A stretch of DNA of 59,782 bases, filler included, from Platydemus manokwari (lineage: Eukaryota), in the NCBI GenBank assembly GCA_037951405.1. It is 5 parts of 5 records of this genome, joined end to end, with 100 filler letters (N's around TTAATTAATTAA, not from the genome) between each part and the next. Parts side by side here need not be neighbours in the genome. Positions count along the whole stretch, not along the records: positions 11,649 to 27,892 come from JBBMOY011195876.1; 4 more parts are not named here. One strand, written 5' to 3'. How positions within the stretch are numbered: the stretch's first letter is position 1; each line of letters begins with the position of its first letter. The position numbers were made by a program, and so were the translations under genes. This document shows, piece after piece, positions 1 to 59,782 of this stretch. The notes beneath the pieces were generated by a model. It was given only the letters and a program-made list of their open reading frames with translations. It did not search any database and was not told the DNA's origin.

Positions 1-3000
1 TTAAATAGATTTCTAATTTCATTTACTAGATTTATTCATTTTTTATCAAATTTCTTTTTCTTTTTATTTATAATTTATAATATTTATAATTTTGTTATCA
101 GATTTCTTAATAGCATTTCTTAATTTTATTTATTGATTTTGAATTCATTTATTTCTTTTCCTCAGAATAATTTTTTATTCAGAATTAATTCATATTTGTT
201 TCAAATTACCCAAAAATTCGAAAAACATTAGCCAATTTAAAATTTTCATTAAATATAAAAGTATGGCGTCAAGCATTAATTCTCGCTACTACTTAATCCT
301 TCGAAAGTTTAACCATCCAAAACCACAACAAGAATCAATATTAGCTTGTGTACAAACATACTATTTCATTAAAAAATTTTATAATTTAACAGAAATCATC
401 TGCCGTCATTAGGAAATAAATTATTTTGAAAAATAAATTCTATTCTAAAATTCGTATATTATTGATAAGTAGTCTATCAACTTTAATTAACATATTCTCT
501 TCATACCGTTAACATGAAATCGAACTTTAACAGTTTTACATTTAAACTGTCCTTGAATCGGAGATTATTTGTTTATCTGAATTACGTTTCGATTTTATTC
601 GAACATTTATCATTGAAGGCCATTATCAATCGACTGAGTTTGGCTTGATTTGGTACATTTTATTAAATTCCAAATGCAATTCTTACACAACTAATACACC
701 GATTATTCTTAAATCGATCACATGTGTTTTGAAAAGTGGAAATCATATCAAGGCAAAGTGTTATTAGATAAATATTTAAACACTGTGTCTTTAAACCGCG
801 GGACTTTGTTTTAATTTTCAATGACTTCATATTTATTGATCTTCAAAATGTGAAGTGCGCAACGAGACAGTGTGCGAACATGTGTAGACAATGATTTAAC
901 CCTTTATATCGACTCTAAAATGCTTATTTTAAAAAAATGCGTGTCAGTTGGAAAAGATTTGTGTATTCTAAAGATCGCTAAATAATATTTATTAATATTT
1001 ATAAAACATCACTGGCATTGATTATATAAATCCTACCTCTAAGCCTATGCAATCGATGTTCTGATAAATAATAATTAAGGGTTAATTACTTGGAATTTTC
1101 ATCTTAAAATCGAGTATATCTGGATAAATAGCTCATCTAAATTATTTCGTAAATGTTTAGAAAATCAAAGCGAGTTAAATAATCACCGACAAGTTCATTT
1201 TATTATTCCAATATTTTAAAATTTTTTCAACACTTATTAGTGTTCTTATGCCTCCCCTTTGATTCGGAATCTCTGTTATTGATTCATTTATGCTGTGTTG
1301 AATGAATAAATTAATTTTCGGAAATATCTGTGAGTTGTTGAATGAAAGAGGAATAATCCATCTTATAATAAATAATATAATAATATTGTGCTCAATTTCA
1401 TTGTAATTTTTCGGGTTAAGCTTATAAATCATTAATTAAATATAAATAAAACTCGCACATGACATCAATTTCAATTGATATTTTTTGTCAGTTAAACCGG
1501 CACTCAATTCAGGACTTAATTCTTATTCTCTTCATGATTCTTAACAGAGCTAAAAGCATTATTTATAGCAATATATTTTCATTTTCACTCAGATAAAGGA
1601 AGCCATAAGTTTAATTAGATTATTTTCGAAACTAAAATGAAATAAATTATCTTCTGATTGGTTCAATATTTGTAAACGGACTGAGATTCAGATTTTGATA
1701 AATATTTGACATTATTATTATTATTATTAACATTATAGGAATCAACAATGTGTTGCACTGTGGTCTGATTAGTATGGATTTATAAAATTTCGGTCAAAAG
1801 GCTAAATACTCAAAATATAGCTTTTATATAATTTGAAATATACCAACAGTTCTTGTACTGAAATATTTACTTGAACTGAATTTGAATTTGATTATTGGTA
1901 TTAAATTAAGAAATTTTTATGCTGATCTGTTATATAGCTTAGATTAAAATCTACAATTTGTATAGTTGTGTTAGTCTGTAGCTTGAATTTATATCTGAGT
2001 ATTTGCTGATTGAATTATTGACCAATCCAACAACCAGTAAACCGATTCAAGAATCCTTTCTACTCGACAGTATCGGATAGGTGTTCAAACTCACAATTTA
2101 TTAATTCTCTTGTTGATGAATTTTTTGAGTAAAATTCTATCCCTAAAAAGGTAAAAATAATTACTTATGACAAATTTCATGACAAATTAATCTAAAAATA
2201 GATAAAAAAAATTAACTAAATCAACGAATGGATCATATAATTAAAAAAAATAGTTATAAATATTAAATAATAATTTGTAAAATCAAAAATAATATTAAAT
2301 GAATACAAAAATAGAAAAATAGTAAAGAAAAATTAATTAAGCACATCCATAAAATTTCATATCGATATATTTCCCATGTAGACATATCTAATCGATAATC
2401 CACAAGTTACGTGAATCAATAGTTCAAATACAACTACAAATTGTCAAGAGAATCGGTTAGAAAAACTGAAGGAATTTATTCTTGAGATAATTTATTATTG
2501 TGTAATAATTGATTATTGGAGAAAACCACTATTGTAATTTCATTTTTACAATTGGTTTCTCACCACAGATTATTTTGTTCAAATTCTACTCCAGGTAATT
2601 TCTTTTATAACTTTAATAACGACTATGATGTTGAAAAATTGTTTAATCATTATTAATCTATTTGGATTGGAGCCAGATCAATCAAAATGTAATTAATCTT
2701 TAAACTTGAAATCTAAAATAAAACATCTTGTTTTTCGTAGTTGTCGGACTATTATTTACTAGGACTGTCAATAAAGCTACTAGCAAATAGAACTATTAAG
2801 GCTCTCTAATATAAGGGCATATAAAGTCTTACACAAAAACCATATTTGTGCCAATAATGAACTTAATTAATTTACGCCTGATTATTTGTTATCAGTTTGT
2901 ATTATTCAATATTGGATATTTAATTTGTCTTACAATTATATTTTATTAAAATATTTCGGTTCATTTTATAATTTCTAAATAAAGACTGCAGCTACTTAAT

Positions 3001-4821
3001 TCAGGTTATTATCACACACCTTATCTAATGAAATAATATTACTAAACCCACCAAACCATAACAGATTCGAATGTACATTTCATATATACTGGCTTTCATT
3101 TATCATTTTGTCAAGGACATCGTTTGCATTTCAATTTCTATTTTCATCTCAACAAATCATCAAAATAGGCGTTTTATTTTTTCCGAAATAAAATTTGGAG
3201 ATTTGATTGTTGTTAAATTAATTTGTAATATTTTAATAAATAAATTATTGAAATATATCGGTTTCTATTTGGTCTTTGAATTACCAAAATAATATCAAAA
3301 ATTCATCGTAATGTTTTAGAAAAAAGAGAATATTTTGAAACAAAATACTAAAATCATCCAGACTATGTTATTCAAAAAACAGGAATCACATTGAATGTAG
3401 AAGCTATAGGATTTGATTATTTTAGTATTTTTATGTTTATAATTTGACGCACGCTCATCGAAAGTTGCTCATCGGTAAGACTGGCAAAGAACAATTCAAA
3501 GTTTAAAAATTTAATATCACTTTTAATGTAACCACCAAAACAATAAATAATTTTCAATCCATCACAATCGATGATCGTTTGAGTTGCATTGCCACGTAAT
3601 TATTTCTTGATACTGATGACAAACACGTGTTGGAAATTACAACCGAAGCATCAAAGATGTACAAGATATTCGTTACGACTTTCGTGATTCATAACGACAC
3701 TTGTAACGCTCAATCGGGTATTCTGTGAAGCCAAAAAATCATTTGTGACAAGACTAATGAATTGCATCGGTGTATTTTTTTTTCCTTGTTTGTATGTCCT
3801 CGAAATGTTGATTTAAGTCCTAATTCGTTTTTGGCAATAATAAGAGAGAAACTGAATTGGAATTTTATAATTTGAATGGTTCTTATGGAGTAAATGTCTG
3901 AAAACTTTGATTGAAACATGTATTATCAGACAAAGATCAACTAATTACGTTATACTGACTTGGTTTTTTCTCAACGATAATTGTGACTACTGATGTCCAA
4001 TCCTAATTTCAGTAATCTCGTTGATAATCAAATTGCAATCCAAAAAAATTGATACAGTGGATTAATGTAATGTTAATTAGGTTTAAAAATTTACTCGAAA
4101 ACACACAGAAATCTGCTTAAATTGAAGGCCAGTTTTAAATTACCACCGAGATTATATTAACAATCTCCTCCATATTCTTATTCATGAAAACATAGACAGC
4201 AAAACATTATTTGTTTTCTATTAATAGAACCATTGTTCTATAATTTCTGATGTTCACAGTTAAATAAAACAACTTTATAAACAAAGTCTGGAACTAACCG
4301 TTCAAGAGAAATTGCTATCAATCAATTCTATGAAAACATTGAAATTATCATTGACAATATTTATGCTTTCAATTTAAATGCTAACAAATCAATTTCATTA
4401 TAATATGATAAAAAATGTAAATAATATATATCATGTCTATTCAATCGAAATTAACCAATTTAAAGTAGACAAACACAATTTGATTAATTGGATTAGACAA
4501 ATATATTTTCTAAAACTTAGTAAAATTTGGATTTACGTATTGTGTATAAACACACACCACTACAGTGAGCAAACATTGAAAATGGTAAGAAAATGTCTAT
4601 GAAAATGCATATGCGATATGTTGCACACAATATCAGAGGGAGAAATAACTAACTGATATGTCTGATTTTGTTAGCCGCACTATATGCATTAATATTGATA
4701 ATCACGAGACAAATTGTCATGGTGATTTTCATTGGCCTATTCATACGCATACACGTTTGATTAAATTATTTGTCTCTACTGTTCAGTTTAATTGGCATTT
4801 AGTGTAAACCGCAGAATAAAA

Positions 4822-5641
4822 ATGAATAACGACGTTAATGAAGATCCGGGTACGTTAGATTACAATATGATCGAAAATGAACTCATCGTTGGATTTAACT
4901 TGTGGGGTGAAAGAAGAATTTGTTTACCACAACTCTTAAGGTTTGTTTTATCGGATTTTGATATCACTATTATAGAACAAGCTGTAACTGATTTACAAAT
5001 CAATTGTTTTCAATGTACTCCTGAACAGATTAAAATTTTACATGAAAATAATATTTTCCCCAAACAAATAGTCCGTTGTGGATTAATAAGGAAAAGCGAT
5101 GCTGAACGTTTGTGCAAATATTTGTTACAGCCAAATCAGAATTTCAATTCATTATCTGAAGCGAATAAGAAGCTTAGTAAATTTAAATCAATCGAAGTTG
5201 TCCATACGTGTTTCGGTGAACAGAGAGGAACGCTTTATCCTGTTTTATACAACTCATCAGATGCAAAATGTATTAAATGTTCAACGTGTGAAAATTTTTT
5301 CAAAACCTTTGAATTCGTTGGTCATACTCATAAATTAGTTGAAGTATCCAATACCTTTCATTGGGGTTTCGATTCCAACAATTGGAGGTTGTTGTTGCAG
5401 ATTTATACCGACGTTGATATGGTTAATGTCGATCAATTAAATGAAATGAAATCGATTTTGGACAAAGTTAAAATCTTATTTTATGAAGAGGAATTAAAAA
5501 AAACAGTAAGTCAACTTATGATAGATTATGTAATATTTATAAATGGCAATTTCATAGAATCCATCTCAGATGAATTATGTTTGGCGACCGAGCAGGAAAT
5601 TTAAATTGCCGAATCCTCCTAAATCAACATTTAATAGGTAA
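4822..5641 (+). CDS. ski: Ski/SnoN-family transcriptional corepressor (DHD/Ski_Sno domain plus SAND-like Smad4-binding domain), about 255 aa, 2 exons
   Basis: DHD motif GFNLWGERRICLPQLL..CTPEQ..RCGLIRKSDAERLC and SAND-like motif HTCFGEQRG..CIKCSTC..FVGHTH..HWGFDSNNWR. First ATG is at 4822 (the track start at 4792 is TTG). Exon 1 4822-5505, 52-nt intron GTAAGT..CATAG at 5506-5557, exon 2 5558-5641 (NPSQMNYVWRP..FNR*), AATAAA at 5707. A further donor at 5638 cannot be excluded. Confidence 0.88.
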
Positions 5642-11648: not shown

Positions 11649-11684
11649 CACCCAGGTTATTGTTGAGGGTTCATATTGTAATTG

Positions 11685-11795
11685 TTAATTGATAATCTGT
11701 AATCATTTTATTTAATTGATAATCTATAATCATTATATTTAATTGATAATCTGTAATCATTTTATTTATTTGATAATCATTGTAGTCATTTTATT
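11685..11795. repeat. 27-bp minisatellite, about 4 copies
   Basis: Unit TTAATTGATAATCTGTAATCATTTTAT repeated with few changes, next to a contig end. Confidence 0.8.
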
Positions 11796-13104
11796 TTTTC
11801 TATTATTGCTTTTGGATAATCAGTTTAATATATCTTGGATAATTATTGTTTATATTCTCAATAATTGAAAAGTATTTGATATACAAGTGTTGATGTTACT
11901 TTGGATAATTGATAATTGTTACTAGTACATAAATTATTTCCATCTGACAACTATTTATTTCATCTTAATATTTATACATTTGTAATTGTCTCAATTACAC
12001 CCAACCTAACCGAGTCAACGAGAAATCTAACGTAACAATACCCTTTGTTGAAGCTCCTTAAAGCCAGTGTAGAAATAAAATTCCAAAACCAACCAATATA
12101 ATTTAATAATCATACTACAACTCAATATTAAATTATCACTCAAGACGAAAGTCGAATACAGAATAGAAGGCAACCAAGAAGACTGCCTATCAGAAAACTC
12201 ACACAAAACTCACAGAACAGAATGAACGTTATCTATTAAAAAAGACTGGTAGTTGCTCGTGAAATCCAACTTCTTCATAGGCTTATTATATGTGCCCACT
12301 TAATGTCCCAGAGGTTAGTTTTTAATTTGATAAATTTGTTTATACATTGATAGAAATTTCTCTTACATTTCTCATACCATTGCCGAATATTGATGTTGGC
12401 TGTCATTTGTTGGTATGAACCAGTCGATTATTGATTTCTAAATACGCATTGATATATAGTGAGAATCTGATTGGCTATTGGCGCATGTGATTTTTAAATC
12501 TTCGTATCAACCCTATAAGGGTTATTACCATGGTTAAAGAGAATATTTTGGCTGTTTTTACGACCCACTCAACAGAAGAATTAAGCAATTCTGTTAACCC
12601 GTTGATATCAGATGGAAATTCTTAAATTAAGTGCTATAATTTGATAAATGGTGTATTCGAATCCAATATCACTTCACATAATTTCAGAATAAGTTACAAC
12701 TTTGGAATGAATTCTTGTTTTGTTCTCATTATGTGAGTGTCATATCATTTCCAATCTAGCGGATAATGTTATTTGTAAGCCTTAAATAAAAACGTAACAG
12801 TAAACAGTAGTTTTCTTGTTAAAATGAGATTGATTTGAAATTAGTTTGAAATTCGTATAAACGTAAGACTTAATTAATGGTCTGACATTTTAATTTATAA
12901 TTACATTATGTTTTAATTAAAAATTCATTATCGCTGGGATATTATTATCATTATTAATATTGTTTTACTATTATGACTTAATCATTATTTGAATTACATT
13001 TTCTCGATTTATATGATTTATATTTTTGGATGTTTCCTAATTCCATGATTTCGTTATAATATGTATTGTAATAAAATATTAAATATTTTTTTTAATTGGT
13101 TGAT

Positions 13105-13234
13105 TGTTTGGTCAAGCATAAAACAATGTTTGGTCAAGCATAAAACAATGTGCTAAACGATTGTTTGGTAAAGCATAAAACAATGTTTGGTAAAGCATAA
13201 ATCAATTTGCCGGTTGATTGCTTGGATAATGCAT
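13105..13234. repeat. 22-bp tandem repeat with a 57-bp higher-order period, upstream of the poly-UBL gene
   Basis: TGTTTGGT(C/A)AAGCATAAAACAA at 13105, 13127, 13162 and 13184, plus a degenerate copy at 13219. Confidence 0.85.
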
Positions 13235-13370
13235 TGTGTGGTATTTAATGGTGCTTGTATTGATCTTGTTTAAATCATTACAACGATTTATTGATTTACA
13301 ATTAATTTTTTGTTCAGATATGATATTATTATAGATTTCTGATAAAAATCAATTAAAATTCAGAATTCCT

Positions 13371-15357
13371 ATGCAAATAATTATCAAAAATAATGACGGT
13401 GAAATTGTTACATTGGAAATATGTCCAAAGGAGAATGTTCAAGAATTGAAATTAAAAATTCAAGCAAAGATTGGAACCCAACCAGATAAACAATGTTTGG
13501 TGTTTCAAGGAAGAACATTGAATGATGGGAGTACTTTGCAAGAAACAGGAATATGTGATCAATCTGTTATAAATTTGGTTAGAATTTTGAGGTAATGATA
13601 TGGTTTGAAATTATTTGGTATTTAATAATTGGTTACTACAGAGATGGATGGATACAAATATTTATTATGAATCTTAATGGAGAAATGATTTTGTTGGACA
13701 TACAGGAATCCATAACCGTCAAACAACTGAAATTAAAAATTCAAGAAAAAATCGGAATCAAACCAGAAGCACAAAGATTATCGTTTCAAGGAGGAGATTT
13801 AGCAGATGAGTGTACTGTGGAGGATTACAGAATATATGATCAGTCTGTAATCGATTTGGTTATTAAATTGAGGTGATGAATTGATTTGAGATGATTTGGC
13901 ATTCAATAATTGTGCATTACAGAGGTGATGCGATGGAAATATTTATTGAAACGTTGGATGGAAAACAATTTGCTTTGGAAATGTGCCAGTTGGATACGGT
14001 TCGGGAACTGAAATATGAAATTGAAAAAAAAATCAATGCCAGACCAGATGATCAAAAATTAGTTTTTAAAGGAGGAATATTAAAGGATGACGAGCGCACA
14101 TTGGATGAATGCGGAATACGCGATAAATCTGTGATAAATCTGGTGACGAGATTGAGGTGATTTGATGGTTTTGAGATGATTTATTGATTGATCACCACAG
14201 ACATGGTTGGATGCGCATCGTTGTCAAAGAGAGCGATAGAAAGGAGTTTCTGCTGGAAATCTCCCCGTTTCGCTCGATTGACGAGTTGAAATTAAAAATT
14301 CATGAAAAAATTGGAGCCAAACCGAAAACACAAAGATTAACATTTGACGGAAGAAAATTAGAAGATGGGCGTACGCTGGACGATTACGGAATATTGGATC
14401 GATCTGTGATCAATCTAACGGTTCAATTAAGGTGATTGTAAGGTTTGAGATGATTTGGCATTCAATAATTTCTCACCCCCAGACCTGGATGGATAAAAAT
14501 ATTGATTAAAACGCCTTATGGGAATGAGCTTGCGTTTGAGGTGCGCTCATTCGCGACTGTCAAGCAGCTGAAATTGAAAATAAAAGATAAACTCGGAATC
14601 GAGCCAGATGAACAACAGTTACGGTTTCAAAATCAAATATTGGATGATGAGAGCACTCTGGGGGAATGTGGAGTACGCCATCAATCAGTGATGCGTGTCT
14701 TTGGGAGATTGAGGTAGTGAGATGGTTTGAAATCATTTGGCAGTCAATAATTTGACATCACAGACCTGGATGGATAAAAGTATTGATTGCGAGCTTTTGT
14801 GGGAATGAGTTTGCATTTGAATTACGCCCACTCGAGACAGTCCAGCAGCTGAAATCGAAAATTCGGGATAAATTCGGAATCGAACCCCATGAACAACAGT
14901 TACGGTTTCAAGATCGAACATTGTACGATGAGTGTACTTTGGATGAGTATGAAATAAGCGATCTCTCTACGGTGAGTTTGGTTAGGAAAATGAGGTATTG
15001 ATTTTATGGGAGATTATTTGATATTTAATAATTGGTTACCATAGAGATGGCATTCAAATATTTGTCAAATGTTTTGATGGCAAAGTGATGGAAATTGAAA
15101 TAAATCCAGTGTTGAAGGTCCAGCAATTGAAATTGTTGATTCAAGCGGAAATCGGAATTGAACCAGACGATCAAACGTTAATGTTTCAAGGAACTACTGT
15201 GTTAACTGATGAGCACAGTTTGGAGCATTTCACAATAGGCGATCAGTCATGGTTAAATTTGACATTCCAATTAAGGTGATTGAAATGGTTTGAGAATGAT
15301 TTGGTATTTGATAATTTGCCATACAGGCCTGGAAACAACGAAATGAAACTCCCATGA
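13371..15357 (+). CDS. poly-ubiquitin-like protein with 7 divergent UBL domains, one per exon (about 546 aa)
   Basis: Exons 13371-13591, 13642-13872, 13923-14156, 14201-14431, 14483-14713, 14764-14994, 15045-15275 and 15327-15357 total 1641 nt in one open frame. All seven introns are 44-51 nt, GT..AG, phase 2 in the Arg74 codon. Domain 1 is 32/74 identical to ubiquitin by manual count. A phase-2 acceptor at 13363 may indicate a further upstream exon. Confidence 0.88.
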
Positions 15358-17300
15358 CTATTCGATTCTCTCGCAGATGAAAAATTGTGATTTGAAAACA
15401 CATTCGTTCAATTTGCCGAGAATCGCAAGTACACAAATGAATTCGGTTATTTTATTGGTGTATATGGTTTTAAAACATATGTCGTTGTGTAGCCAGAATG
15501 TGTGATTTTGGCTGGTGATTATTTATTTAAATTTTGTATTTTGACATTTCTCTGATCTCTGTACTTTGATTATTCATGTTTTTTCTGTTCTTATTATTAA
15601 ACATTTTGTACAGAATTTTGTTTTCGTTCAGTTCGTGGAAAAGAGTGAGATTAATAAATACGTCGAGTTTAAGCATAATTAGAATTTCACAAATATCTTT
15701 AGCTTTTTCTAGGTATTGCGATCCTAATGTTCACAAATCAATTGTACTGTGTTCCTAAATGTTTCGAAGTGCTGATGTTGGGGTTGTGGTTTTGTTTTCC
15801 AAATCATTTTGTAATTCCTGTATTATCGGTTGAAACGCAATGCCAATTCGGTAGGTGCGGGGATTAAAATAATTTGGTCAAAATAAATCAATAATCAAAA
15901 ACAAAGATAATGTCCAGATTTCATATTTGAATCTATTACAAATACTCAAAATCGTATGATATAATAATACAGAGGACAAATTCAAATCTCTATCTTTTAA
16001 GATACGGTTCCATTCAATCAGACTTAATTAATTTTCCAATCGCCTAAAATTACGATATTCCCCAGTCATACACTTTGATCTGATAACGAACCTGCTTTGT
16101 CATGAAAATATAGATTTTAATTATTGCAGATTTTATGTGAACGAAATTGTTAAATCATATTTCTTTACTTTTTTAAAGTTGTTCAATAATTCGGGTCTAG
16201 GACTTCTTTTGTAAACCTCCGTCTGAATTATTTTTTGTGAGTGAATTTTCCTACTGCTTACATACTGATTATGAATTATTTTTATTATTTTCTTTTTAAA
16301 ATTATTTTATAAATCCGCCTACATTAATAATTTTAATTTATTGTTCTCTCACAATAATTTGATTAAGTTTACATTTTAAATAATTTATATTTCACCCTCA
16401 TTTATAAATTTTATTATAATTTTATTCATTATTATTATTCTCAAAAATATAATTTTGCCCGCCATAGATTTTTATTATAATTATACAATAAATTTTATTC
16501 AACAAAATTTTTTTACATATTAAAAAATGAAATTATCAAAAAATACCTACATATAAATTGTATATATTTTATGCAAAAATGATCTCAAAAATCAGTGTCT
16601 ACTTTTCACTTGGATTGTAGCTTTTGTAGGCTTTGGTAAGAGATTTGGATTTGGGGTTGGTATCCTTCATTCTGAAGACTGAAGACGGGGATTGAGAAGA
16701 TGATTGAAGGTTGTTGAGATTTAAATGTTATCGATATCGTTATGATTATATAACGTCATTTGAAACATTAAATGAAACTAGATTTCTATCAATAGAACGT
16801 TTTCATTCTAAATTAACAGAAGAAATAAGGAAGGAAGGGATGCTGAAACGAAAGAAAATATGGGAAAGAGAAGACAAAATAGAACAAATATTAAAATAAT
16901 TCTTCAGAATTTGGGTACTTTTAATTTTTTTTCGAACGTATCTGCGTTTCAATGAATTCTTGTTCTCGTTAACCACCATTTATTTCACAATTACTTCTAC
17001 CCGGTTCGTTTAATTATGTCATATTAGCATTGTTTTAGATTTTTTCATTATAAGAATGTTTTGAAAATTTTAATTAAAGCTTGAAAATCATGATCAATTA
17101 TTTGCCTTTATTATAACAAGATTTATATATGTCCATTGTGGTGTTCATTAAATCGGTTGCAGAATTCTTAAATCAATAAATAAATTTTAAATACAAACCT
17201 TGTTTTAATAATAATAAAATTATAAAAATTATTTAAAATTATTTTCTTGGATATTTTCAAACCATGGGAATTTTAATGAAAATCTTATTGATTATAATAG

Positions 17301-17957
17301 ATGAAAATTAGTGTTACAATTAGAACGTTAAATGGTATGACGGAGGATGTTACCATTACAGAAAATACCACAGTTGCTCAATTAAAATTGAAAATTGAAA
17401 ATATTTTTGGATTGCGTCCGAAAGAACAAAGATTGTTGTTAAATGATATCGTTCTTCTCAAAGATGACGAAAAGGTTATTAATTGTGGAATCAAAAGCGG
17501 AACCATTATTAAATTGTCAATCGTTCCGGGGTATTCATTTGGTTTATAAATAAACATTTTCTGACATTATTTTATTGATTATAAAATATTGGTTTTTGAT
17601 TGGATTTAAAGTGTTGAATTATTGATAATGCGAGACGAATAATCAATAATATTTCACCGTTTTTTAAAAGTGTTTTGTATATTTTAAATTATGAGAATAA
17701 ATGAACCAGCTTAACTCGATTATTGATTGTAGTAAATTCAATTTGACAGTTAATCCATTGGATGGGCGTAATATTGATATTGAGGTGACATCAAATGAAT
17801 CCGTGGCTGATTTGAAATGCAAAATCGAGAAAATATGTTCAATACCGATTGATGAACAGGTTTTGTTGTATAAAGGCAATCCTCTCGATGACAAATGCTC
17901 ACTATCGAGTTCTGGAATCTATGATTACAGTGTTATTTGTCTGATTCCGAAATTAAG
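17301..17957 (+). CDS. two UBL-domain exons (either a di-UBL gene or the 5' part of a 6-UBL gene continuing at 20863)
   Basis: Exon 17301-17530 (MKISVTIRTLNG..QRLLL..IVPG), phase-2 intron 17531-17732, exon 17733-17957 (KFNLTVNPLDG..QVLLYKGNPLDD..PKLR) ending in a phase-2 donor AG|GT. The 3' end is unresolved: local acceptor at 17994 versus distal acceptor at 20862. Confidence 0.75.
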
Positions 17958-18202
17958 GTGGATTTATTATTTAGTGAAAATTATTTATTATTAGATCAAT
18001 AGCTGTTTTGTTTTAAAATTGATTTTATTGATTTTATAATTAATTTTGATATATTTAATACTTAAAACTAAACACAGGCGCATACACATATATCTGTGTT
18101 AAGCGATAATCGATGAAAAGTAAATGGCCAGATAAATTCCAATCAATCGATAAGTGAATTATGAAGTGTTTAATTCCATGTCATATAAGATTTTTAGTAT
18201 TA

Positions 18203-18369
18203 CAGTATTTCTCTTCCTAACCACCAATTCCTCTTAACTGCCACATTTTTCCAATAACAAAAAACAAGATTTTCTTTTGACTTTTTTCTTTATTATTTAT
18301 TTATCAAGAACTCTTAACCGCCACATTTTTGCAATTCCTCAAATGTGACGGTTAGGAGGAGAAATACAG
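18203..18369. mobile_element. pogo/Tigger-like MITE (167 bp)
   Basis: TIRs CAGTATTTCTCTTCCTAACC and GGTTAGGAGGAGAAATACAG, flanked by TA on both sides. Internal repeats of CTCTTAAC(T/C)GCCACATTTTT. Confidence 0.85.
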
Positions 18370-19989
18370 TAGTAAGACTAAACCCGCACATCGATAGATT
18401 ATTTGGTGGTTTAATCAATAATTCTTCAAAACTGTCTTTAATGTCATCGATTGAATTCTATAAGAATAATGTTTTCACCACGTAATTAGTTACCGATGGT
18501 GTTTGTGAACTTGTGATTTGATGTTACTAATAATATCTGACTGTTGCTAGCTAAATTCTCTACTCTATTTTCACCTTAATAGAAATTTTATTGCGCGTTT
18601 TAACATAAATGCAAATATGTTCGACCAATATTATTAGACTGAATAAAGACTTTATTTTTGCCAAGAATTTCTGCAATAATTGATACTAAAAATAGCAATT
18701 GAGAAATGTGATCTTTATATTGAAGTGGTCTGAAATTAATATTAATTCTTGGAACTAATGAAATCCGATCCTTGTCAAAAAAGGTCTTTCTGTCTTTGGA
18801 CTTCAATATATATAAATGTTTAAAATCAATAAAAGATCACCCCACAGGTAACTTTATTAATGGTGAAAACATATCTGGAAATTTACTGGGATTTGGCCCA
18901 GAATTAGAAATTTATTTCTCTGAAAACTCGGTATCGTGAATAGATTAATTGATTTGCCCAATAATAATCTTGAAACATAATTGATTTGAGTGCTCGTGGA
19001 TGACTAATATTCGGTAAGCGAAATTTAAATATCTTTGTCAGGCGTCCAAATCTCTGATATTGTTGGGAATTCTGTGTTGTTTTTATCTTCTAATTTCCTT
19101 CTTAATTTCTTTTCGTTGCCTTGGAAATGTTTTGTTGTCATGGGATTTATATTTCTAAATTATAAGTTTTTTTCTGTTATAGAATTCATTGCAGTCAACT
19201 CCGATCAATTATTCTTCAATAAAAGCACAATCCAATAATTTGAATCGATTGTTTCTGTTTTCAAAGAGAATTAAAGTTCACATTGATCGTTAAATTTTGT
19301 TTTTAATTTAGTTTTCCTTTTCGTGCTTGAGTTGTTTAAGCTATCTGGTAATTATGTTCTAGCCTGTTGCGACTTAATTATCGATTAATTACTTGAAGAA
19401 ACAAGTCGAATTCTTGCTAAATAATATCTCCATTATTTCTGCTTCATTTGATATTTTTATTCAGATTTGTTTCGTGACTTTATATGATAAAATCTTCGGG
19501 ATTCATTTCTATAAAAGATATTTTGTAAGTGGCTATAGGGGTATCCCTAATTCAACTATTGACAGTTCTCATAAGTAATCCACTGCTAGACAGGTTTCGT
19601 AATCCTTTATACTAATTATTTTACGAGAAGATGAAGATCATTTCGTTCATGCTCACATTCAATCCCAATTGGCCGAGGGACATGTTGAAACGGCATTTCG
19701 GTTTCATATTATTTAGCCAAAAGGAAACTCATTTTGTCACAATTAATTCAACTTTAACCCAGAGAAAATTTGCTGACATAGACATTATGTGATTAGATAA
19801 GTGGAAGGATTTTTGTTGATTTCATTGTCTTCAGTAAAATACACGCACTTGACCAGAGAATAGATCATTTGGATTACAGAAATGTGCTTAAATTATATTG
19901 TAAAGATTTTAATGTAATAAGTTTCGAAAAATATTTATTTATAATCGACGTATTCTCAAGACTGATCTCTAAATCACAATACATTAAAC

Positions 19990-20341
19990 CAGTGGTCTTC
20001 ACACGTTTTGTGTTGCGACCCACTTTACGAATCTAAAATTTTCGCGACCCCTAGGAACTAAAATAAAAATAATAAAAACAATTTTTTTAATACATTTTTT
20101 TTAACACCAAAAAATTGAAATATATTTAATAATAACGACGATTTTGCATACTCTGGCATAAAATATCAAATTTTAGCTCTATTTCGGTGATGGCTGATGT
20201 CGGTACTAATTCCACATCTTTAAAATTCGATCGATATTTTGTCTTAATATAAGTCAGTGTCGAAAATGAAATTTCTCGCGACCCCCAAAAAACTTTTCAC
20301 AACCCACTGGTGGGTCGCGCGTCCCATTTTAAAGAACTCTG
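19990..20341 (-). mobile_element. non-autonomous hAT (Charlie/Buster-type) element
   Basis: Ends CAGTGGTCTTC and AAAGAACTCTG, subterminal GCGACCC repeats, 8-bp TSD CATTAAAC/CATTAATT (6/8). The minus strand encodes a Buster-type transposase C-terminus EISFSTLTYIKTKYRSNFKDVE..EIELKFDILC. Confidence 0.85.
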
Positions 20342-20862
20342 CATTAATTTATCCTATAATTATCGATATTATTATGAAAATCATTATTCAACCGACCTGT
20401 TAGTAACCCACGAAAATATGGAATAATTGACTAAGGAAACCTGTTGTACTGCTTTATACTGCAAGAATTGCTGGGGGAATGCATATTTATTGATATATTG
20501 ACTTTCACTGGATTCGAATCATTAATAATAGCATAGTTATTATAGCAACAAATATTGATTCATTTATTGATAATTTGTGATATTATTTCGTGTTACAATA
20601 AGCTTTTTAATAAAAGCGTGATTTTAAGAATCATAACTAAGTCTAGTGTTGTTAAATCGGCAACACTGTGCCCATTAATGTTTATTAAATTCGAAATGTT
20701 CGAGACATTTTAAATTTATGTAATATTTTTAAACCATCACGTGTCTGAAGATTTCCAGTGTAAATTGGTAATCGATTGAGCCATTTCTACTATATTTATA
20801 TGTGAAAAACAGCTCAGTTTTCAATTTTCTGATAATCAATAAGTATTTTATTGAAATATTAG

Positions 20863-21927
20863 CAATAAGACTCAAGTACGCGCCAAAACATTAGACGGTA
20901 AAATCGTGGCATTGGAGATTAATGAAAACAAGACGATTCGTGACTTGAAAATGGAAATTCAAGGAAAATTAGGATTAGATCCTGATGATCAAATATTGAT
21001 TTTACTCGGAGCCATTTTAGATGATGTTGAAATGGTGGATGCTTGTGGCATCAATAGTGATTCGGTGATTAATATAATTGTTAAATCTAGGTATTGATTT
21101 GATGATATACAACTTTTTAATTTGTGGAATACAAATTCAGATTTATACAGATCCGCGTCAAAACATTGAAAGGAGAAGTTATTAAATTGGAAATCAATAA
21201 AAAATGGACAATTCGTGATTTAAAAATTGAAATTGAAAAGAAATTGAAAATAAATCCCGACGATCAAAGATTGGTGTTTGAAGGATATCTTTTAGAAGAT
21301 GAAAAATTGGTGGACGAATGTGGAATCTATAATGGATCAGTTGTTAATGCCATTGTAAAAATAGCGTAAGGAAATATTATTGGATTCGTGATAAATAATT
21401 ATTGTCGCGAAAATTGTAGAAATAAAATACGATTGTATATCAAACCGTTGAAAGGAGAAAAACTCCCATTTGAAATTTTGAAAAATTCAACTATTCGTGA
21501 CATAAAATTGAAAATCCAAGAGAAATTGAAACACGATCCCTATGATCAGAGATTAATATTTCAAGGCAAGCTTTTGGAGGATGGTAAATCGTTGGATGAT
21601 TATGGAATCGATGACCAATCGGTGATTAATGCAGTCTTTGTATTTAGGTAACGATTTGACATTATGTGACGAGAAGAAATTATTTCGGTATTATCGATTA
21701 TTTTCAGCTTATACATCCAGATGTTCGATGGTATGAGGCATAAAATTGAAATTCCTAAATATTACACTATTGGGATCTTGAAATTAAAAATCCAAGATGA
21801 ATTAAATTTTCATTCAGATGAGCAAAAATTAATTTTTCAAGGTCATGTTTTAATCGATAATCAATCAATAATAGATTGTCAATTGAAAAGTGGGTCGATA
21901 ATTCAACTGGTGAAATGCACAAAGTAA
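20863..21927 (+). CDS. four UBL-domain exons (3' part of a second poly-UBL gene)
   Basis: Exons 20863-21090, 21141-21365, 21420-21647 and 21708-21927; phase-2 introns of 50, 54 and 60 nt; open when spliced. The first exon starts at a phase-2 acceptor with no Met at the domain start, so an upstream exon is likely needed. The third domain is closest to ubiquitin (QRLIFQGKLLEDGKSLDDYGI). Confidence 0.85.
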
Positions 21928-22134
21928 TCAATTATTCTATATTTCAATTGATTATTGTGTTTATTGATTATTTATTGAATCGTTTCATTATTTAAAAATT
22001 TTGTACTTTCAAATAAAGCTGCTTGTTGATGTGGGATGATATGTTATGAAATATTGCTTTAAATTATTGAAAAATGAATAATAGTGTGTCCATCGATGTG
22101 TGATGAATTGTTGTTGTCAGTGTCACAATCAATC

Positions 22135-22602
22135 AGTAGTTGATAATAAAATTGACTGGTGGATGTGTGAGTTTGAATTCATCAGTGACCAAATTATGCA
22201 CTGCTGGACTCGAGATCCAATCGCGTACTGATGATTATTAACGAATTTATCTATCGGAGAACTACCTGTTGTGATCGATAATGTTTCAATCAATAAATTC
22301 TGATTAAACCACAAATTTGTATTAACAATTTAAGCTTAATGATTATTCATTAAATCGATAAATAATTATTGATATTCTTTACATTTTTAGAGAGTGATAA
22401 ATGGATCTCGAATTTAACGTCACTGAAACAATAAGCAAGATCCAGGGAAATATGAAAACGAATATCGGAAATTATTGATTATTTTCTTTTATGAACCATT
22501 TTTAAAAGATTGCCATCCCATTTTATTGGTAAATAATTCTCAAGAAATATCCCATACCGTATTAAGATGGAATGAAATAATAGATCCGAGAATTATATTT
22601 TA
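22135..22602 (+). pseudogene. about two decayed UBL exons trailing the array
   Basis: Frameshifted UBL-like fragments LEIQSRTDDY*RIYL and MDLEFNVTETISKIQGNMKTNIG..LIIFF..FLKD..HTVLR. The spacer between them ends in TTTTTAG at 22390 and shares GATAAATAATTATTG (22357-22371) with the intron sequence at 21390-21404. Confidence 0.45.
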
Positions 22603-24653
22603 ATTTATATTATAATTATATTATTCAGAACAATCGATAATAAAAATGTTATTCAATTACAATCTTTGAACATTTTCCTTCTCGATTTTACATTTTTTGA
22701 AATTTATTTTGTTTTTTGGATTCTGGATTTCTCCAGTTATTTTATGCCTTCATATCGGCATAATCTCAATGATATTTGACTAAAATACAATAAAATCAAT
22801 CTTGGTTTCGTTTGTCTTATTGATAATTTTTTGTGTGAGGTTATAATTCACATAATTTGAGATTGTACTGATTTGTGTTTGGTTTGTTTAATCGAAATAG
22901 AAATTGTTAAATATCTGGGATGAAATTAAGAAAAAGGGACCTTTGACCTACTTTCGTAATGATGAATTTTCGCGCATGAGATAATTTTATAATTTAATTT
23001 TATAAATAATTGCGATGTTTGATTTATTCGTGCAATTCAGTTGATATCTCACATTTGTAGAATGTCGAATAGGGACAAGTTCCTATCCTAATCAGATCAC
23101 TTCTAGGATTCTTTTATTTTGTAAATTTAAATTTATTTAATTATAAATCAACATAGGAAACTCATGACATGTTTAATAGAATGATAATACTTGTTTCTAA
23201 CAGATGGTTGTAAAAATACAAAATATCACTCAATTTGCTTCTAAGATTAAAAAAAGAAGTCCCCGCAAGTTTTCAATAAATTACAATTCGACCTACTTTG
23301 ATCCGTTTTTTACATGATCCAATTCTATGTGTTTTCGAAGCTCTCGTTTATTTAATATTTGATTTCAAACAAATAAAGTTCTTGATTACTTAAATAAAAA
23401 TTAAAAAAAAATAAAAAATCCTAAAGTATTATCTGATAAAAATTTTGTCTATTCCACTAAATAATTTAAAATTGCATTTCTTGTCTACCAGTTAAGGAAT
23501 TTTATTTCAGTTTGTTACTTACCCAATAAAATTTGTAATCAACCCTAGGTTGTTATCATTAATATTATTATTTATATTATTTACAGTGCAAGCATTGTAT
23601 ACCGCCGTCATTATCAAAGTTGGTGTCTAAATTATTGTTGGGACCTACGCTTAAATTATGGTCCTTATTATCAGTGAGGATATTGAAACCAATTAGCATT
23701 TGAATGATCATTTTAAATATAAAATATATTGATATTCAGTAATGTATATTATCGATTTAATTTTTTGAATATCATGCTAGCTATATTTTCGAAACTAAAC
23801 TTAGAATGATTAATGAGTGTCTTTTTACTGTTGATTAGTTTACCAACTAGAACGAAAAAGGAAATATTGATTCAGCAATAAACACGCTTAGATAAATTTG
23901 CTCATGAAGCTGATGAGTGACTTCAAATTAAGAACTTTTTTACATTTAAGCTGATAGAGATAGATATTCTATTGAAAGTAGATGCGTGCCTGCTGTGGAA
24001 GGAGTGTGGTAAAGATAAGGAATGCAACAGCCAACGATTACATAGAATTTTGGTTCTATGAGACGTTCATTAGGATAGAAGCAGGATTAAAAATATCGTA
24101 TATTCGTAAATCCAACAATTTGTTTTATAGTAATTAAAAATCTTTTTAAATAAGGCGGAGTTAAGATTTAAACTCATTCTAGAAAAGTTAAATATTTTAT
24201 TTCGGGCATTGTCTTCATACTAAGCTCATAAAATCGTTGCAATATCTAGTGATGTAGAAGAGATAATCTTATTTTTAAAATATCGATAACTTTAATTATC
24301 GATTAATAAAATCAATAATCACCAAAGGATTATTTCAGTGAAACAAACAAAATTTAATTAACATCATAATTATAGTGAGAAACGTTTCTAAACGATATGT
24401 AAAACGAAGCTGCAGCTGGACACACAAATTTAAAATCAGTATCTTTATTGGGGTTGAAAAAATAACTAAATTGAACCAACTTTTTATTATTCTGTGTGAC
24501 GACAGGCATTGAACATTTGCTATATTGATTAATTTTTATTATATTCTTTTATGTTGGATTAGACCAATATTAATTTTTTTTATAATATGACAATTCATGT
24601 TTAATAAAAATGATATTTATAAAATAATACATTGCGATTCATAAGTCACCGTC

Positions 24654-25143
24654 TCTAAAACTAAAATAAAACAAGAATATTTGAAAGGTTTTATTTTTTA
24701 CTTTGTGAAGTCACGAACACTCGTGCAGTTTCTTGTTGATTTGTGCCATCTTTCTCTTTTACAAAATTTACCACCTTTTCCTTCATGATTTCATCAGACG
24801 GTCTTCTTGATCGCAACCTAGTGGATAAGTTTCCAGTTTATTCAAACTTCTGTTTCCAGTATTGCATTGTTGTCTTATCTGATGGTGGATAATTGTAATG
24901 TTGCTGAAATTCTTGGCAAGCTTCGGCACTACTCTGGTACATCATTGAATAACTAACTATAAACACTATTCGCAAGCAAAAATTTAACATCACCAACTGT
25001 TTCTGCTATATTTTAATAATGGAACTCATTAATAAGAAATAAGAAATAAAACACATTAATCAGTGAATAATAATGAATATCAATAAGTATAAATATGTGA
25101 GTATAAATTATATTGTGTTTTGTTGTTTTATTTTAGTTTTAGA
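24654..25143 (-). mobile_element. internally deleted Tc1/mariner-superfamily transposon
   Basis: Perfect 21-bp inverted repeats at 24654-24674 and 25123-25143. The minus strand (24990 to about 24700) encodes an N-terminal HTH region, RIVFIVSY..EFQQHYNYPPSDKTTMQYWKQKFE*TGN..RSRRP, with an internal stop. Confidence 0.8.
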
Positions 25144-25699
25144 AATTGAAAGACAGATTTAAAATTTTTTTTAAATATTCTTACTATTTTTAATAGCCAT
25201 TGATTATTTAACTTTCAATATTTTTGAAAACAAAATCTTATTGATAAAGGGTGATAATCGATTTTCGTACTTAATAGGTTCCGAGATTGAAAATGGAAGT
25301 CGAAACGTGACATAAAAAAGAACAATGAAAAAAGAAGTATTTTAAAAACATTATTTTTCTAAAACATGTATTAACATGCATTGATAAATAAACATGTTAT
25401 TGATTATGATCTGGTGTTTTATTTATCAATTGAACTTCATTAAATTATATTACTCACAATTTTATCGGTTCATATTGATTTGATCTCATTGATAAATTCA
25501 CTACTAAATATGTGTGAAATATGGATTTGTATGACAATCAGGGACAGACTAAATATTTTAATCAATAATTAATTTTTTAAATGTTACGAAAACATTTTAA
25601 AATTTATATTAGCAACATTATTGAAACAATATAATCACCCTTCAAGAAAATATGCGACAAACAATTAACGTCATTGAAGATAAACATAACATAATACTG

Positions 25700-26005
25700 A
25701 TAAAATGCATGATAATAATAATCGTAAAAATAATTATCAGTATTTTAAAATCAACTGTGATAATAATAATGGCCATAAATAATTGTAACAGAAGAATCAA
25801 TAATAATAATAATAGTGAGAATAATAATAATAATAATGATGGTAACTATAACCACAATAATAATGTTATAATAGTCATAATACTCTTAATAATAATTATG
25901 ATAATGTCAATGATGATAATATTGGTGGTGATAATAATAATTGTAATAATAATGTTAATAATAAAAAATAATAATTATTATAATTAAATAAAGATGATAA
26001 TGATA
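25700..26005. repeat. degenerate (AAT)n microsatellite / low-complexity tract
   Basis: Runs of AATAATAAT with scattered substitutions. Confidence 0.85.
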
Positions 26006-26196
26006 TGCACACCATTATTTTTCAAACAGCATTTCAAGCAAAATTAGATTTCACCAAGAAATTTGATTGTAACCTCGACATCATCCCCTAAATATGGAAT
26101 TAAGAAATATATAAAAATTCCAATAACAAAATTAAAATTTCCCCAAAAGACTCTTATATATTAGGCAATATAATTGTTTATAAACTCAAAATTAAC

Positions 26197-26577
26197 TTTA
26201 AATTTAACGTTGTCAAAGTCCACTAGGTGAGGTGTATCACAAACCGAAAGAATTTCAATTCCTAATTGGCCAGAAGCGCCCATTCCAAATGTATAAAGCT
26301 CCCCTGATGCAGTCACAACAGCACTGTGCATATGACCACAATCACCCTGAGATGAATTTTTATTTTTAAAACACTGATTCCATTATTATTTATACCATAA
26401 TTGCACCTTTGCCTCTAAGAGTTTCTACTAACTTCGGCTTTTTCAAAGTGGTTGCATGTCCATGACCCAATTTTCCATAAGATCCTATACCCCAAGTGAA
26501 AACCTCTCCAAATGAAGTAATAGCCATGATATGACTTTCCGGACCACGAGATGCCGCTACGAAAGTTACTTTGTAAT
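26197..26577 (-). CDS. RCC1-repeat (RLD) exons, HERC1-like E3 ligase fragment
   Basis: Exons 26577-26396 and 26346-26197 (49-nt intron) encode YKVTFVAASRGPESHIMAITSFGEVFTWGIGSYGKLGHGHATTLKKPKLVETLRGKGAIM|GDCGHMHSAVVTASGELYTFGMGASGQLG. This resembles HERC1 RLD1 as I recall it (SSSKGSDGHTLAFTTEGEVFSWGDGDYGKLGHG). Neighbouring exons were not found. Confidence 0.78.
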
Positions 26578-27398
26578 CTGAAAATATTATGAAAACAAAT
26601 CCTTAAACAATTAATAATATATACCTATTAATATAAACCTATATAATATTATAACAATACGGCATATTATCTTTTAATAATACATATGTTTTCAAAAATT
26701 CATATATAAAAGATAGGGATTGAACTAAATAAATTAGGGGATTATTTAATGTAATCGTTTAATATTCAACAATACTTCTACATCAAAATTATTGATTTCA
26801 TAGTGTGAAGTTTATTTGAAGATACGATAAATAATTAAAATTTACGAACGATTAAAATTATTAAAAATTGAGCCAAAAAATATTTTTACAAAATTATATT
26901 AAAAATTCATATAGCATATCAATATTTATAAAAGGATCTTGCTTAAAAAATACTGTTAAACTCTCAGTTTTAAAATTATTATAATTATTAAAATTATTAA
27001 AGATAAAATTCAAATCTTTTACAAAAATAAGATGTAATATAAATAAATCTGGGCATATTTATATTTGGATGAAGACAAATCAGGTGGAAATAAATTTAAA
27101 TTTAATATTTAAAATTGTTTTGAAAATTGATGAATTGGCGAACAATTTTTTGTTTTATTGTGAACATGACTTTTGATTTGAATATCAAGAATGAAGAAAT
27201 TTCGGTAACTAACACCTGGACTGCAAAAATATCGGTGATTCAAGAAAATATGATGAAAATAAATCAGGAAATATCTAATATCAAATAATTGAGATAATTA
27301 ATGAATAATAGGGGCTAAATGATTGTCATCATAAATATAAATATTTCTTTAAATAAAATCGAAAATATTTCATTGATTGCAACCTTAGTATACCTGTC

Positions 27399-27710
27399 CA
27401 TTGTTGAGGAACTATATCACGGAGCCGACCAAATTTTATAAAAATATTCGGGACCGGAGCCAAAAGAAAACTTAAATATTGAAGCGACTCCTACCATTTA
27501 TATAACTGCTACCCAAGGCTTGACATAAGATTTTTCTTAAAGTTCAAACTATTTTTAAGGATATCTTAGCCCGGATGAGTGCTAAATAATCTAACTGGTA
27601 CACAACTGACTGTATAAAAAAATTTCTTTCAAAGTTATTTTAATATTTTTATTTAGTTTTATAATATCGGATCCGGAGTCACATTGATTTCGTTCATTCC
27701 TTCCAGCCCT
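27399..27710. mobile_element. possible degenerate hAT-type MITE
   Basis: Clustered GGAGCC/GGAGTC/GACTCC subterminal-type motifs and a right end TTCCAGCCCT in AT-rich context. The left end is poorly conserved. Confidence 0.3.
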
Positions 27711-27892
27711 TATGTTCATGCCTGAATGTATAAGATTTGAAAGCCTACGTTAATCTTTATGTATTTATAAATCATGATTTAATTCTAAATTATCTTTGTG
27801 AAAATATATAATAGAACATAATTTTGTATTGATCTAGATTAGACATGAATAATTCGGTAACAATGATTCGTAAATAATTAAAATTAATCATA

Positions 27893-58926: not shown

Positions 58927-59782
58927 CTAAATATAGAATAAATTTAGAATTTAATTAAACTGTTAAAGTACAGTTTAAAAATCCAGTTCAAAAATGAAAC
59001 TTTGTTAAATCCACTGCTATTGTTAAAAAATAATATTATTAGAATATAATTTTGCATTATAGCTTATATTTAAATTTCATATGCGTTATCAGATAAAATT
59101 TTGGTCTTTTAGAAAATTAGATTTATTGATTTATAATTAAAATCCAAATATCTAGTACTTTTCTTCTAGGCTGCAAAGCAGATTTGGGAAACTTAAGAGA
59201 TATAAGAATGATAATGTTTTTAAAATATATTCTTTGATATTTTAATAATTGATATACTCAAAAGTAAAGTTAATAATTACATAATAGTTATGCATGGTAG
59301 CCATTCGAGATCAGGTATTTACAATATGAAATCCAATCGAAGTTGTTTTTGGTTCATACTTTTAGAGATTTTTGCATTTTATTGTATTTATTAATTTATG
59401 AAACACAATGTATTGTGAAATTATATTTTCAAGTACTTGTGCTGTTGATATACAATCAGAGCATTTGAATTTGCCAAGGAAATTAATATGGAATCAATAA
59501 CAAATTCAAATTTACTGAAAATGTACTTACAATATGATAAATTTCACAACCGGAAACAACTTTCACTGACTATTTTTTATGCATTTGAAATTAGCAATTT
59601 GATTATTAACCCTATAAATGAAAGGCGTCTCATGAATGTAAAAATTAATAATCATACGAGCTGAATGAAAATCAAATTATTAGGTTGGTGCAAAAATAAT
59701 GGCCATTATCTAACAGCAACTTTAAAAGACTATAACTCGCTTAAAAAATAAGTTTATTAATCAAAATAAAGCCCATTGGATT

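What the first reader, a model, noticed from the sequence alone, without database searches (positions are those of the whole stretch)
13592..15326. Introns appear more conserved than the coding exons they separate
Seen: the seven introns share a consensus GT(G/A)AT..GGTTTGAGATGATTTGG(C/T)ATT(C/T)AATAATT..(C/T)AG. Introns 2 and 4 share 27 identical consecutive bases (TTTGAGATGATTTGGCATTCAATAATT), and introns 1 and 6 share nearly their whole 3' half. The exons, by contrast, differ at about half of amino acids. The result is a conserved-repeat/variable-cassette architecture. Inference: either diversifying selection on UBL surfaces (as in venom and immune gene families), gene conversion of the introns, or a functional intronic element that controls splicing or recombination.
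Basis: partly seen in the sequence, partly recalled or inferred. Interest (0 to 1): 0.72.

Follow-up and report, generated by a model that had tools for sequence, protein, structure and literature searches.

The report
Slow introns in ubiquitin-repeat gene family
In what is likely a flatworm, a predicted seven-domain ubiquitin-like gene belongs to a many-copy family whose roughly 50-base introns change about 40% more slowly than silent sites, likely because splicing constrains these tiny introns while much of the protein drifts almost freely, a mild form of a pattern already known from venom and insect saliva genes.

Summary
Observation confirmed, effect moderate. 13371-15357 is a predicted 546-aa chain of seven ubiquitin-like (UBL) domains, one per exon, with seven 44-51-nt phase-2 introns. 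Related DNA lies on 37 other contigs of this assembly, likely a flatworm. Across 45 position-matched units, introns evolve at 0.62 of the synonymous rate (CI 0.51-0.75) and amino-acid sites at 0.77. The upstream flank runs at about the synonymous rate. The effect is strong for introns 2 and 5-type, moderate for 3, weak or absent for 1 and 4. Diversifying selection is not robust (M7/M8 p=0.005, M8a/M8 p=0.08, M1a/M2a p=0.27). No general conversion between introns of one gene was found; introns 1/6 are one candidate. Intron constraint seems to relax in broken copies (0.87 vs 0.54, p=0.03, fragile). Best reading: selection on minimal introns plus weak constraint on UBL surfaces. No RNA run was available, so splicing is predicted. 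The scan noted similar patterns on other DNA (e1-8806698, e1-9597731, e1-7708489).

The parts
13371..13591 (+). exon 1, UBL domain 1 (ATG at 13371); an acceptor-like TTCAG lies just upstream in most paralogs
   Evidence: (PF00240 E 1e-18)
13592..13641 (+). intron 1, 50 nt, phase 2, in-frame TAA at once
   Evidence: predicted, no RNA
13642..13872 (+). exon 2, UBL domain 2
13873..13922 (+). intron 2, 50 nt; slowest class (0.37 of dS); differs at 2 of 46 bases from two paralogs whose exon 2 differs by about 21%
13923..14156 (+). exon 3, UBL domain 3; its 3' end is nearly invariant among paralogs
14157..14200 (+). intron 3, 44 nt, with a 7-nt deletion that marks this position in all 10 class members
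14201..14431 (+). exon 4, UBL domain 4
14432..14482 (+). intron 4, 51 nt, holds the 27-nt run shared with intron 2
14483..14713 (+). exon 5, UBL domain 5
14714..14763 (+). intron 5, 50 nt
14764..14994 (+). exon 6, UBL domain 6; closest to exon 5 (75% nucleotide identity), the youngest internal duplication
14995..15044 (+). intron 6, 50 nt; shares 9 minority states with intron 1 (other pairs 2-5)
15045..15275 (+). exon 7, UBL domain 7
15276..15326 (+). intron 7, 51 nt
15327..15357 (+). short last exon, ten residues then TGA; no C-terminal Gly-Gly

Best explanation
This is a predicted seven-domain ubiquitin-like gene, likely built by repeated duplication of one exon-plus-intron unit, whose minimal introns evolve at about 0.6 of the synonymous rate, likely because of purifying selection for correct splicing, while the exons look variable because only the fold core is conserved. 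Shown by my analyses: the repeat unit, the family, the rates, and that introns mostly travel with their own exon position. Inferred: (a) origin from a head-to-tail ubiquitin-like gene with an intron inside the Arg codon of LR|GG; (b) array remodelling by unequal crossing-over near exon ends, with birth and death of copies; (c) that the constraint acts through splicing of 40-55-nt introns with a weak pyrimidine tract; (d) that the protein is a cytosolic, uncleaved, non-conjugated chain of binding domains, since the linkers are LR-x-G or LRGD rather than LRGG, K48 and K63 are lost, and the I44 patch varies.
For: Pooled over 45 units: intron 0.62 (0.51-0.75, p=9e-7 against 1), omega 0.77, intron < omega p=0.013. 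The result holds under genome base frequencies (0.66) and a shared GTR model (0.60 for classes B-E). Upstream flank 0.89-1.0 or 1.17-1.25, so synonymous sites are a fair neutral yardstick. Tips of intact genes: omega 0.60 and intron 0.54, both below 1; tips of broken copies: 0.88 and 0.86, neither different from 1. Intron rest vs broken p=0.03 and p=0.007 on the full tree. No same-gene excess similarity of introns. Intron lengths match those of 27 tubulin introns, 41-61 nt. T content at -15..-4 is 0.39 against 0.52 in those controls. A two-domain relative (L140) has an intron in the same codon followed by GGM. Chimeric units (E exon + C intron; F exons + D intron) point to crossing-over.
Against: No RNA evidence for splicing or expression. 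The broken-copy contrast is fragile: p=0.27 without L006, p=0.23 in the 3-df test, and omega is not released on the full tree (0.69 vs 0.72). The effect is uneven: class D 1.08, class A 0.64 or 0.87. Intron 1 against its own flank is only p=0.03-0.10. Positions 8-30, neutral in Drosophila short introns (10.1101/2022.01.29.478184, passages), are slow here (0.57), and 27 other short introns of this genome share no such motif, so ordinary splice signals do not obviously explain it. The window's exon 3 has a near-zero branch (pS 0.09-0.23 to paralogs against 0.27-0.42 for its other exons), which points to exchange between paralogs or an assembly mosaic. The last 12 codons show a same-gene excess (p=0.003, one of five tests).
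Confidence: 0.55

Rival explanations
1. Gene conversion between paralogs homogenises the junction regions (exon end plus intron), while exon middles escape because the domains are selected to stay different; the introns need have no function of their own.
For: The exon-3 end and intron 3 are nearly identical in many copies: an exact 25-mer across that junction lies on 10 contigs, and short contigs there have depth 110-235 against 13-17 elsewhere (the tool warns that depth is no copy number). The window's exon 3 is near the class centre. Introns 1/6 share 9 minority states. The same idea was proposed for Hessian fly SSSGP genes (PMC2955719, passages).
Against: Position-specific marks persist (GC donor at position 2, deletions at 3 and 4). 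No same-gene signal in introns and no significant identical run among the seven units (that run test dropped gapped columns). Synonymous rate in the last 8 codons is not reduced (0.89); in the first 8 it is borderline (0.62, p about 0.04). The intron's last 8 variable bases run at 1.18. Broken copies look released.
Confidence: 0.25
2. Strong diversifying selection on UBL surfaces, as in venom or immune genes, makes exons outrun neutral introns.
For: M7/M8 p=0.005. Class-wise M1a/M2a p=0.007 with 10% of sites at omega 2.1, broken copies included. Omega about 1 on deep branches despite a conserved core. The residues at ubiquitin L8, R42, I44, H68 and R72 vary.
Against: M8a/M8 p=0.08 and M1a/M2a p=0.27 in 35 units from genes without lesions. 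Mean omega is below 1. The introns are slower than synonymous sites and flank, which selection on amino acids cannot cause. No signal peptide-like N-terminus is seen in the translation (by eye).
Confidence: 0.08
3. The excess is an artefact of AT-rich gapped alignment, of the substitution model, or of a short-read assembly that mixes paralogs at shared stretches.
For: Unrelated introns reach 0.65 identity with a gapped aligner. The assembly is very fragmented (1.99 million contigs). Single-copy-depth contigs were not listed across about 13790-14170. My codon code is home-made, with fixed relative branch lengths.
Against: Ungapped identity is 0.61-0.78 against 0.37. The result is stable under three base-frequency models, GTR, and dropping any of five genes including the window's (0.53-0.54). 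The equally AT-rich flank is not slow.
Confidence: 0.1

Closest known systems
Hessian fly SSSGP gene families (Chen et al. 2010, PMC2955719; passages read)
   Same: Multigene family in which non-coding parts, introns included, are more conserved than coding parts; conversion and selection were both invoked.
   Different: There dN/dS is above 1 (up to 18) in secreted proteins and the UTRs are conserved too. Here mean omega is 0.6-0.8, the flank is not conserved, the protein is a predicted cytosolic UBL chain, and the unit is a domain-sized exon.
Snake three-finger toxin genes (PMC2474615; passages read)
   Same: Intron segments highly similar (over 85%) while exon segments diverge; fold-defining residues kept.
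   Different: Long introns, secreted toxins, accelerated exon evolution. Here the introns are minimal and positive selection is not robust.
Polyubiquitin (UBB/UBC type) and tandem-UBL proteins such as ISG15 and FAT10 (ISG15/FAT10 features recalled, not from a call)
   Same: Head-to-tail beta-grasp domains at 76-78-residue spacing; domains 32-43% identical to this genome's own ubiquitin; Pfam PF00240.
   Different: The genome's true polyubiquitin (three repeats on one contig) is intronless with identical repeats. Here every repeat is its own exon, linkers lack Gly-Gly, and there is no terminal GG. Many unrelated multi-UBL proteins exist in public data, none closer than 47% over 60 or more residues among the best 150.
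Drosophila short introns, positions 8-30 as neutral reference (10.1101/2022.01.29.478184; passages read)
   Same: Short, intron-defined introns whose splicing information lies inside the intron.
   Different: There positions 8-30 evolve fastest; here they run at 0.57 of dS (0.44-0.74).

Membership tests
Ubiquitin-like (beta-grasp, PF00240) domain | Match above Pfam's gathering score | tested here: met
   7 of 7 exons, 51-75 bits against cut-off 25.4
Polyubiquitin precursor | Near-identical 76-aa repeats | tested here: not met
   34-54% identity between repeats, 32-43% to ubiquitin
Polyubiquitin precursor / conjugatable UBL (ISG15, FAT10 type) | Gly-Gly at the end of each repeat or of the chain | tested here: not met
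   Linkers RDG, RGD, RHG, RPG, RPG, RDG; tail RPGNNEMKLP
Venom/effector-type accelerated exon evolution (SSSGP, snake toxins) | Non-coding sequence more conserved than coding sequence | tested here: met
   Intron 0.62 vs omega 0.77, p=0.013; 0.54 vs 0.72, p=0.004 on non-broken branches. But 0.54 vs 0.60 on intact tips alone, raw pN 0.208 vs intron 0.205 in intact pairs, and the flank is not conserved
Venom/effector-type accelerated exon evolution (SSSGP, snake toxins) | dN/dS clearly above 1 | tested here: not met
   Mean 0.74; M8a/M8 p=0.08; M1a/M2a p=0.27; M7/M8 p=0.005 with omega 1.2
Venom/effector-type accelerated exon evolution (SSSGP, snake toxins) | Secreted, gland-expressed product | not testable with these tools
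   No RNA holder listed; the predicted protein starts directly with a UBL domain; an upstream exon is not excluded
Concerted evolution of introns by conversion within the gene | Introns cluster by gene rather than by position | tested here: not met
   Nearest intron same class 43 of 51, same gene 0 of 51; residual p=0.57; one candidate pair, introns 1/6
Mirtron or intronic structured RNA | Stable hairpin joining the splice ends, or an Rfam match | tested here: not met
   6 of 7 introns z between -1.2 and +0.4, one at -2.5 with another shape; Rfam best E 0.2 and 0.88, far below gathering scores
Introner or dispersed repeat | Same intron sequence in unrelated genes | tested here: not met
   15 of 15 exact motif matches lie on contigs of this UBL family

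The most novel reading that the evidence does not exclude
The family carries its own splicing-control element in the middle of a minimal intron (the TTTGAGATGATTTG...AATAATT stretch, absent from the control introns). It would set how many UBL cassettes a transcript keeps: all internal exons are symmetric and can be skipped in frame, and 55 of 57 introns stop translation within two codons if retained. One gene would then make UBL chains of regulated length and order, a combinatorial ubiquitin-decoy repertoire in flatworms.
Probability: 0.15. Interest if true: 0.65.

Novelty: new member of a known kind. Interest (0 to 1): 0.35.

Why it matters
The family appears undescribed: searches for planarian tandem UBL genes found nothing relevant, and no close protein relative turned up. 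It also offers a tidy test system, with dozens of homologous 50-nt introns in live and dead copies. If the mid-intron constraint is real selection, short-intron interiors are not a safe neutral reference in such families, and the motif points to an unknown splicing determinant. As it stands the effect is about 40%, uneven among positions, and the overall pattern has published precedents, so the finding is of moderate interest.

Tried and rejected
No RNA holder listed; one DNA-type run, probably the source sample, so it is not independent. Laying it twice gave no allelic variants usable for a polymorphism test. A search for longer proteins with exon 3 found none at E<=0.001, which is weak evidence. 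The profile search returned 41,468 proteins; the best 150 held ubiquitins and unrelated multi-UBL proteins, with no spliced relative to confirm junctions. The protein atlas was not available for this sequence. Mirtron, snoRNA (the GTGATGA start resembles box C, recalled) and introner ideas were rejected. A block structure of conserved motifs with neutral linkers looked strong when drawn after the fact (0.38-0.40 vs 0.8-1.25; heterogeneity 0 of 100 simulations). It did not hold up: no autocorrelation, the flank is similarly overdispersed, and cross-validation gave 0.54 vs 0.74 and 0.52 vs 0.63 with overlapping intervals. A TRAT with its A at -14 occurs in 39 of 57 family introns but is not positioned in the 27 controls, so a branch point is only a guess. 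Tubulin paralogs were too old as a rate control: 18 pairs, only one at dS below 1, its intron at background score. The exon-window dS fit was faulty (optimiser stuck) and was redone; residue numbering was off by one and was corrected; one search failed. Literature searches returned nothing; two returned one irrelevant paper each; PMC7495047 (passages) was not relevant; PMC10457151 and PMC6332867 were seen as listings only. No supplements were read. No fold was predicted, since Pfam settles the domain type.

Full report
Setting. The finding lies in the second stretch of the pack, window 11649-27892, which is contig C1195876 of G000 (911 Mb in 1,989,153 contigs). GC is 25-30%. Of five long COX1 matches examined, one reads AAA as Asn and ATA as Ile at conserved places (table 9, the flatworm code); three look gastropod-like and one arthropod-like by my recollection of such sequences. 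The host is therefore likely a predatory flatworm with prey DNA. This is an inference; the nuclear stretch was not tied to that mitochondrion directly.

Gene model. From the ATG at 13371, seven exons of 221-234 nt are separated by GT-AG introns of 44-51 nt, all phase 2, followed by a ten-residue tail: 546 aa. Each exon is one PF00240 domain above cut-off, 32-43% identical to the genome's own ubiquitin. Splicing is predicted only: no RNA run is listed and no spliced relative was found. Core residues are kept (ten invariant columns). K48 and K63 are absent from all seven domains, L8/R42/I44/H68/R72 vary, and no linker or end has Gly-Gly. A two-domain relative has its intron in the same Arg codon followed by GGM (L140), while true polyubiquitin here is intronless. 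I infer origin from a ubiquitin-like tandem gene with that intron, followed by duplication of the exon-intron unit.

Observation. The 27-nt run of introns 2/4 and the similarity of introns 1/6 are real. Over 21 pairs, amino-acid identity is 42%, exon nucleotide identity 61%, pS 0.54, pN 0.35, four-fold differences 87 of 183, and intron difference 0.30. AT-rich gapped alignment inflates identity (0.65 for unrelated tubulin introns), but ungapped identity is 0.61-0.78 against 0.37.

Family. The gene matches 37 other contigs (58 matches; 40 of 41 candidates scored, so a lower bound). The intron motif occurs 15 times, always on these contigs. From loci L001-L030 (L024 dropped as a duplicate) I parsed 77 units after removing 6 mis-parsed ones by hand, and kept the 57 with an open exon of 70 or more residues and a defined intron. 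Of these, 45 fall into five position classes; one chimeric intron was masked. Copies differ in domain number (3 to 8) and many are broken. I counted L001, L003, L004, L005, L019 and L021 as intact (L005 has a frameshifted last exon; my walk stopped at a non-AG donor in L004) and L002, L006, L007, L008, L009, L010, L014 and L018 as broken; the rest are partial. Chimeric units show crossing-over near exon ends.

Rates, using my own MG94 plus HKY code on exon-derived trees. By class, omega is 0.54, 0.70, 0.69, 0.88, 1.02 and intron/dS is 0.64, 0.37, 0.64, 1.08, 0.45 (class D mixes long and short introns and aligns poorly). Pooled: omega 0.77, intron 0.62 (0.51-0.75), p=9e-7 against 1 and p=0.013 against omega; 0.66-0.68 under other base frequencies. 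The upstream flank of 8 genes runs at 0.89-1.0, against 0.67 (0.47-0.84) for intron 1 on the same tree. Under one shared GTR matrix the values are 0.60 for classes B-E, 0.87 for intron 1 and 1.17-1.25 for the flank. So the introns as a group are slower than two neutral yardsticks, but unevenly. In raw counts among intact genes, pS is 0.305, pN 0.208 and intron 0.205: introns equal replacement sites rather than beating them clearly.

Selection on exons. In 35 units from genes without lesions: M0 0.74; M7/M8 p=0.005 (omega 1.2); M8a/M8 p=0.08; M1a/M2a p=0.27 (five beta classes, fixed relative branch lengths). The class-wise M1a/M2a test with broken copies gave p=0.007. The plain reading is a conserved core with roughly half the sites near neutrality; some positive selection is possible, not shown.

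Conversion. Introns of different positions are not more alike within a gene (p=0.57, 61 pairs), the nearest intron is of the same class in 43 of 51 and never of the same gene, and no identical run among the seven units is significant. The 27-mer is the family's common state, found at several positions in several genes. Against this: intron 6's nearest neighbour is intron 1 with 9 shared minority states; the last 12 codons show a same-gene excess (p=0.003, one of five tests); and the window's exon 3 with its flanking introns is unusually close to paralogs. Some exchange has happened, or the assembly is mosaic there.

Selection on introns. Intact tips: omega 0.60, intron 0.54; broken tips: 0.88, 0.86. 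The intron contrast is p=0.03, lost without L006; p=0.007 on the 57-unit tree, where omega does not differ and odd introns may misalign. This favours function but is suggestive only. Positions 8-30 run at 0.57, unlike Drosophila, and the control introns lack the motif. A discrete element could not be confirmed by cross-validation. There is no hairpin or Rfam family. 55 of 57 introns have an in-frame stop within two codons, against 11 of 27 controls read in the same frame; the 57 share ancestry, and the GTRA donor gives this stop automatically in phase 2.

Verdict. Real and measurable, about 40%. Best explained by constrained minimal introns plus weakly constrained UBL exons in a birth-and-death family (0.55); conversion between paralogs 0.25; artefact 0.10; diversifying selection alone 0.08. 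The pattern is known from gall-midge SSSGP and snake toxin genes (passages), in stronger form. The family itself was not found in print (searches; the library lacks most subscription journals). Interest 0.35.

Noticed in passing
window 17301-17549 and about 17737-17961, +: Two single UBL reading frames; a similar pair lies on another contig (L143).
   Followed up: partly
window about 20870-21927, +: A second, four-domain UBL gene with more diverged 50-60-nt introns; no paralog by DNA search apart from a 73-base match.
   Followed up: partly
window 13358-13370 and 12 paralogs: A conserved TTCAG acceptor-like site just before the ATG: an intron in the 5' UTR, a missing upstream exon, or a trans-splice acceptor.
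   Followed up: no
L002, L003, L004, L005, L007, L008, L013, intron 2: A GC donor is shared by 7 paralogs at position 2, while the window's copy has GT.
   Followed up: partly
L004 about 2870-3000: The 3' splice region is tandemly triplicated after a chimeric exon-intron unit.
   Followed up: partly
L146, L147, L149: Divergent single UBL genes ending in or near RGG/VGG, possibly conjugatable modifiers; part of a wide UBL radiation in this genome.
   Followed up: no
G000, tubulin family search: 156 matches, many of them divergent alpha-tubulin-like genes with long tails.
   Followed up: partly
L043-L047: Several different animal COX1 genes in one assembly, consistent with prey or contaminant DNA.
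   Followed up: partly
window 4792-5604 +; 26161-26602 -; 51081-58954 -: A Ski/Sno gene; exons that look like RCC1 repeats and like a glutamate-transporter gene (by eye).
   Followed up: no
window 13098-13234: A 22/57-base tandem repeat inserted in the upstream flank of this copy only.
   Followed up: no
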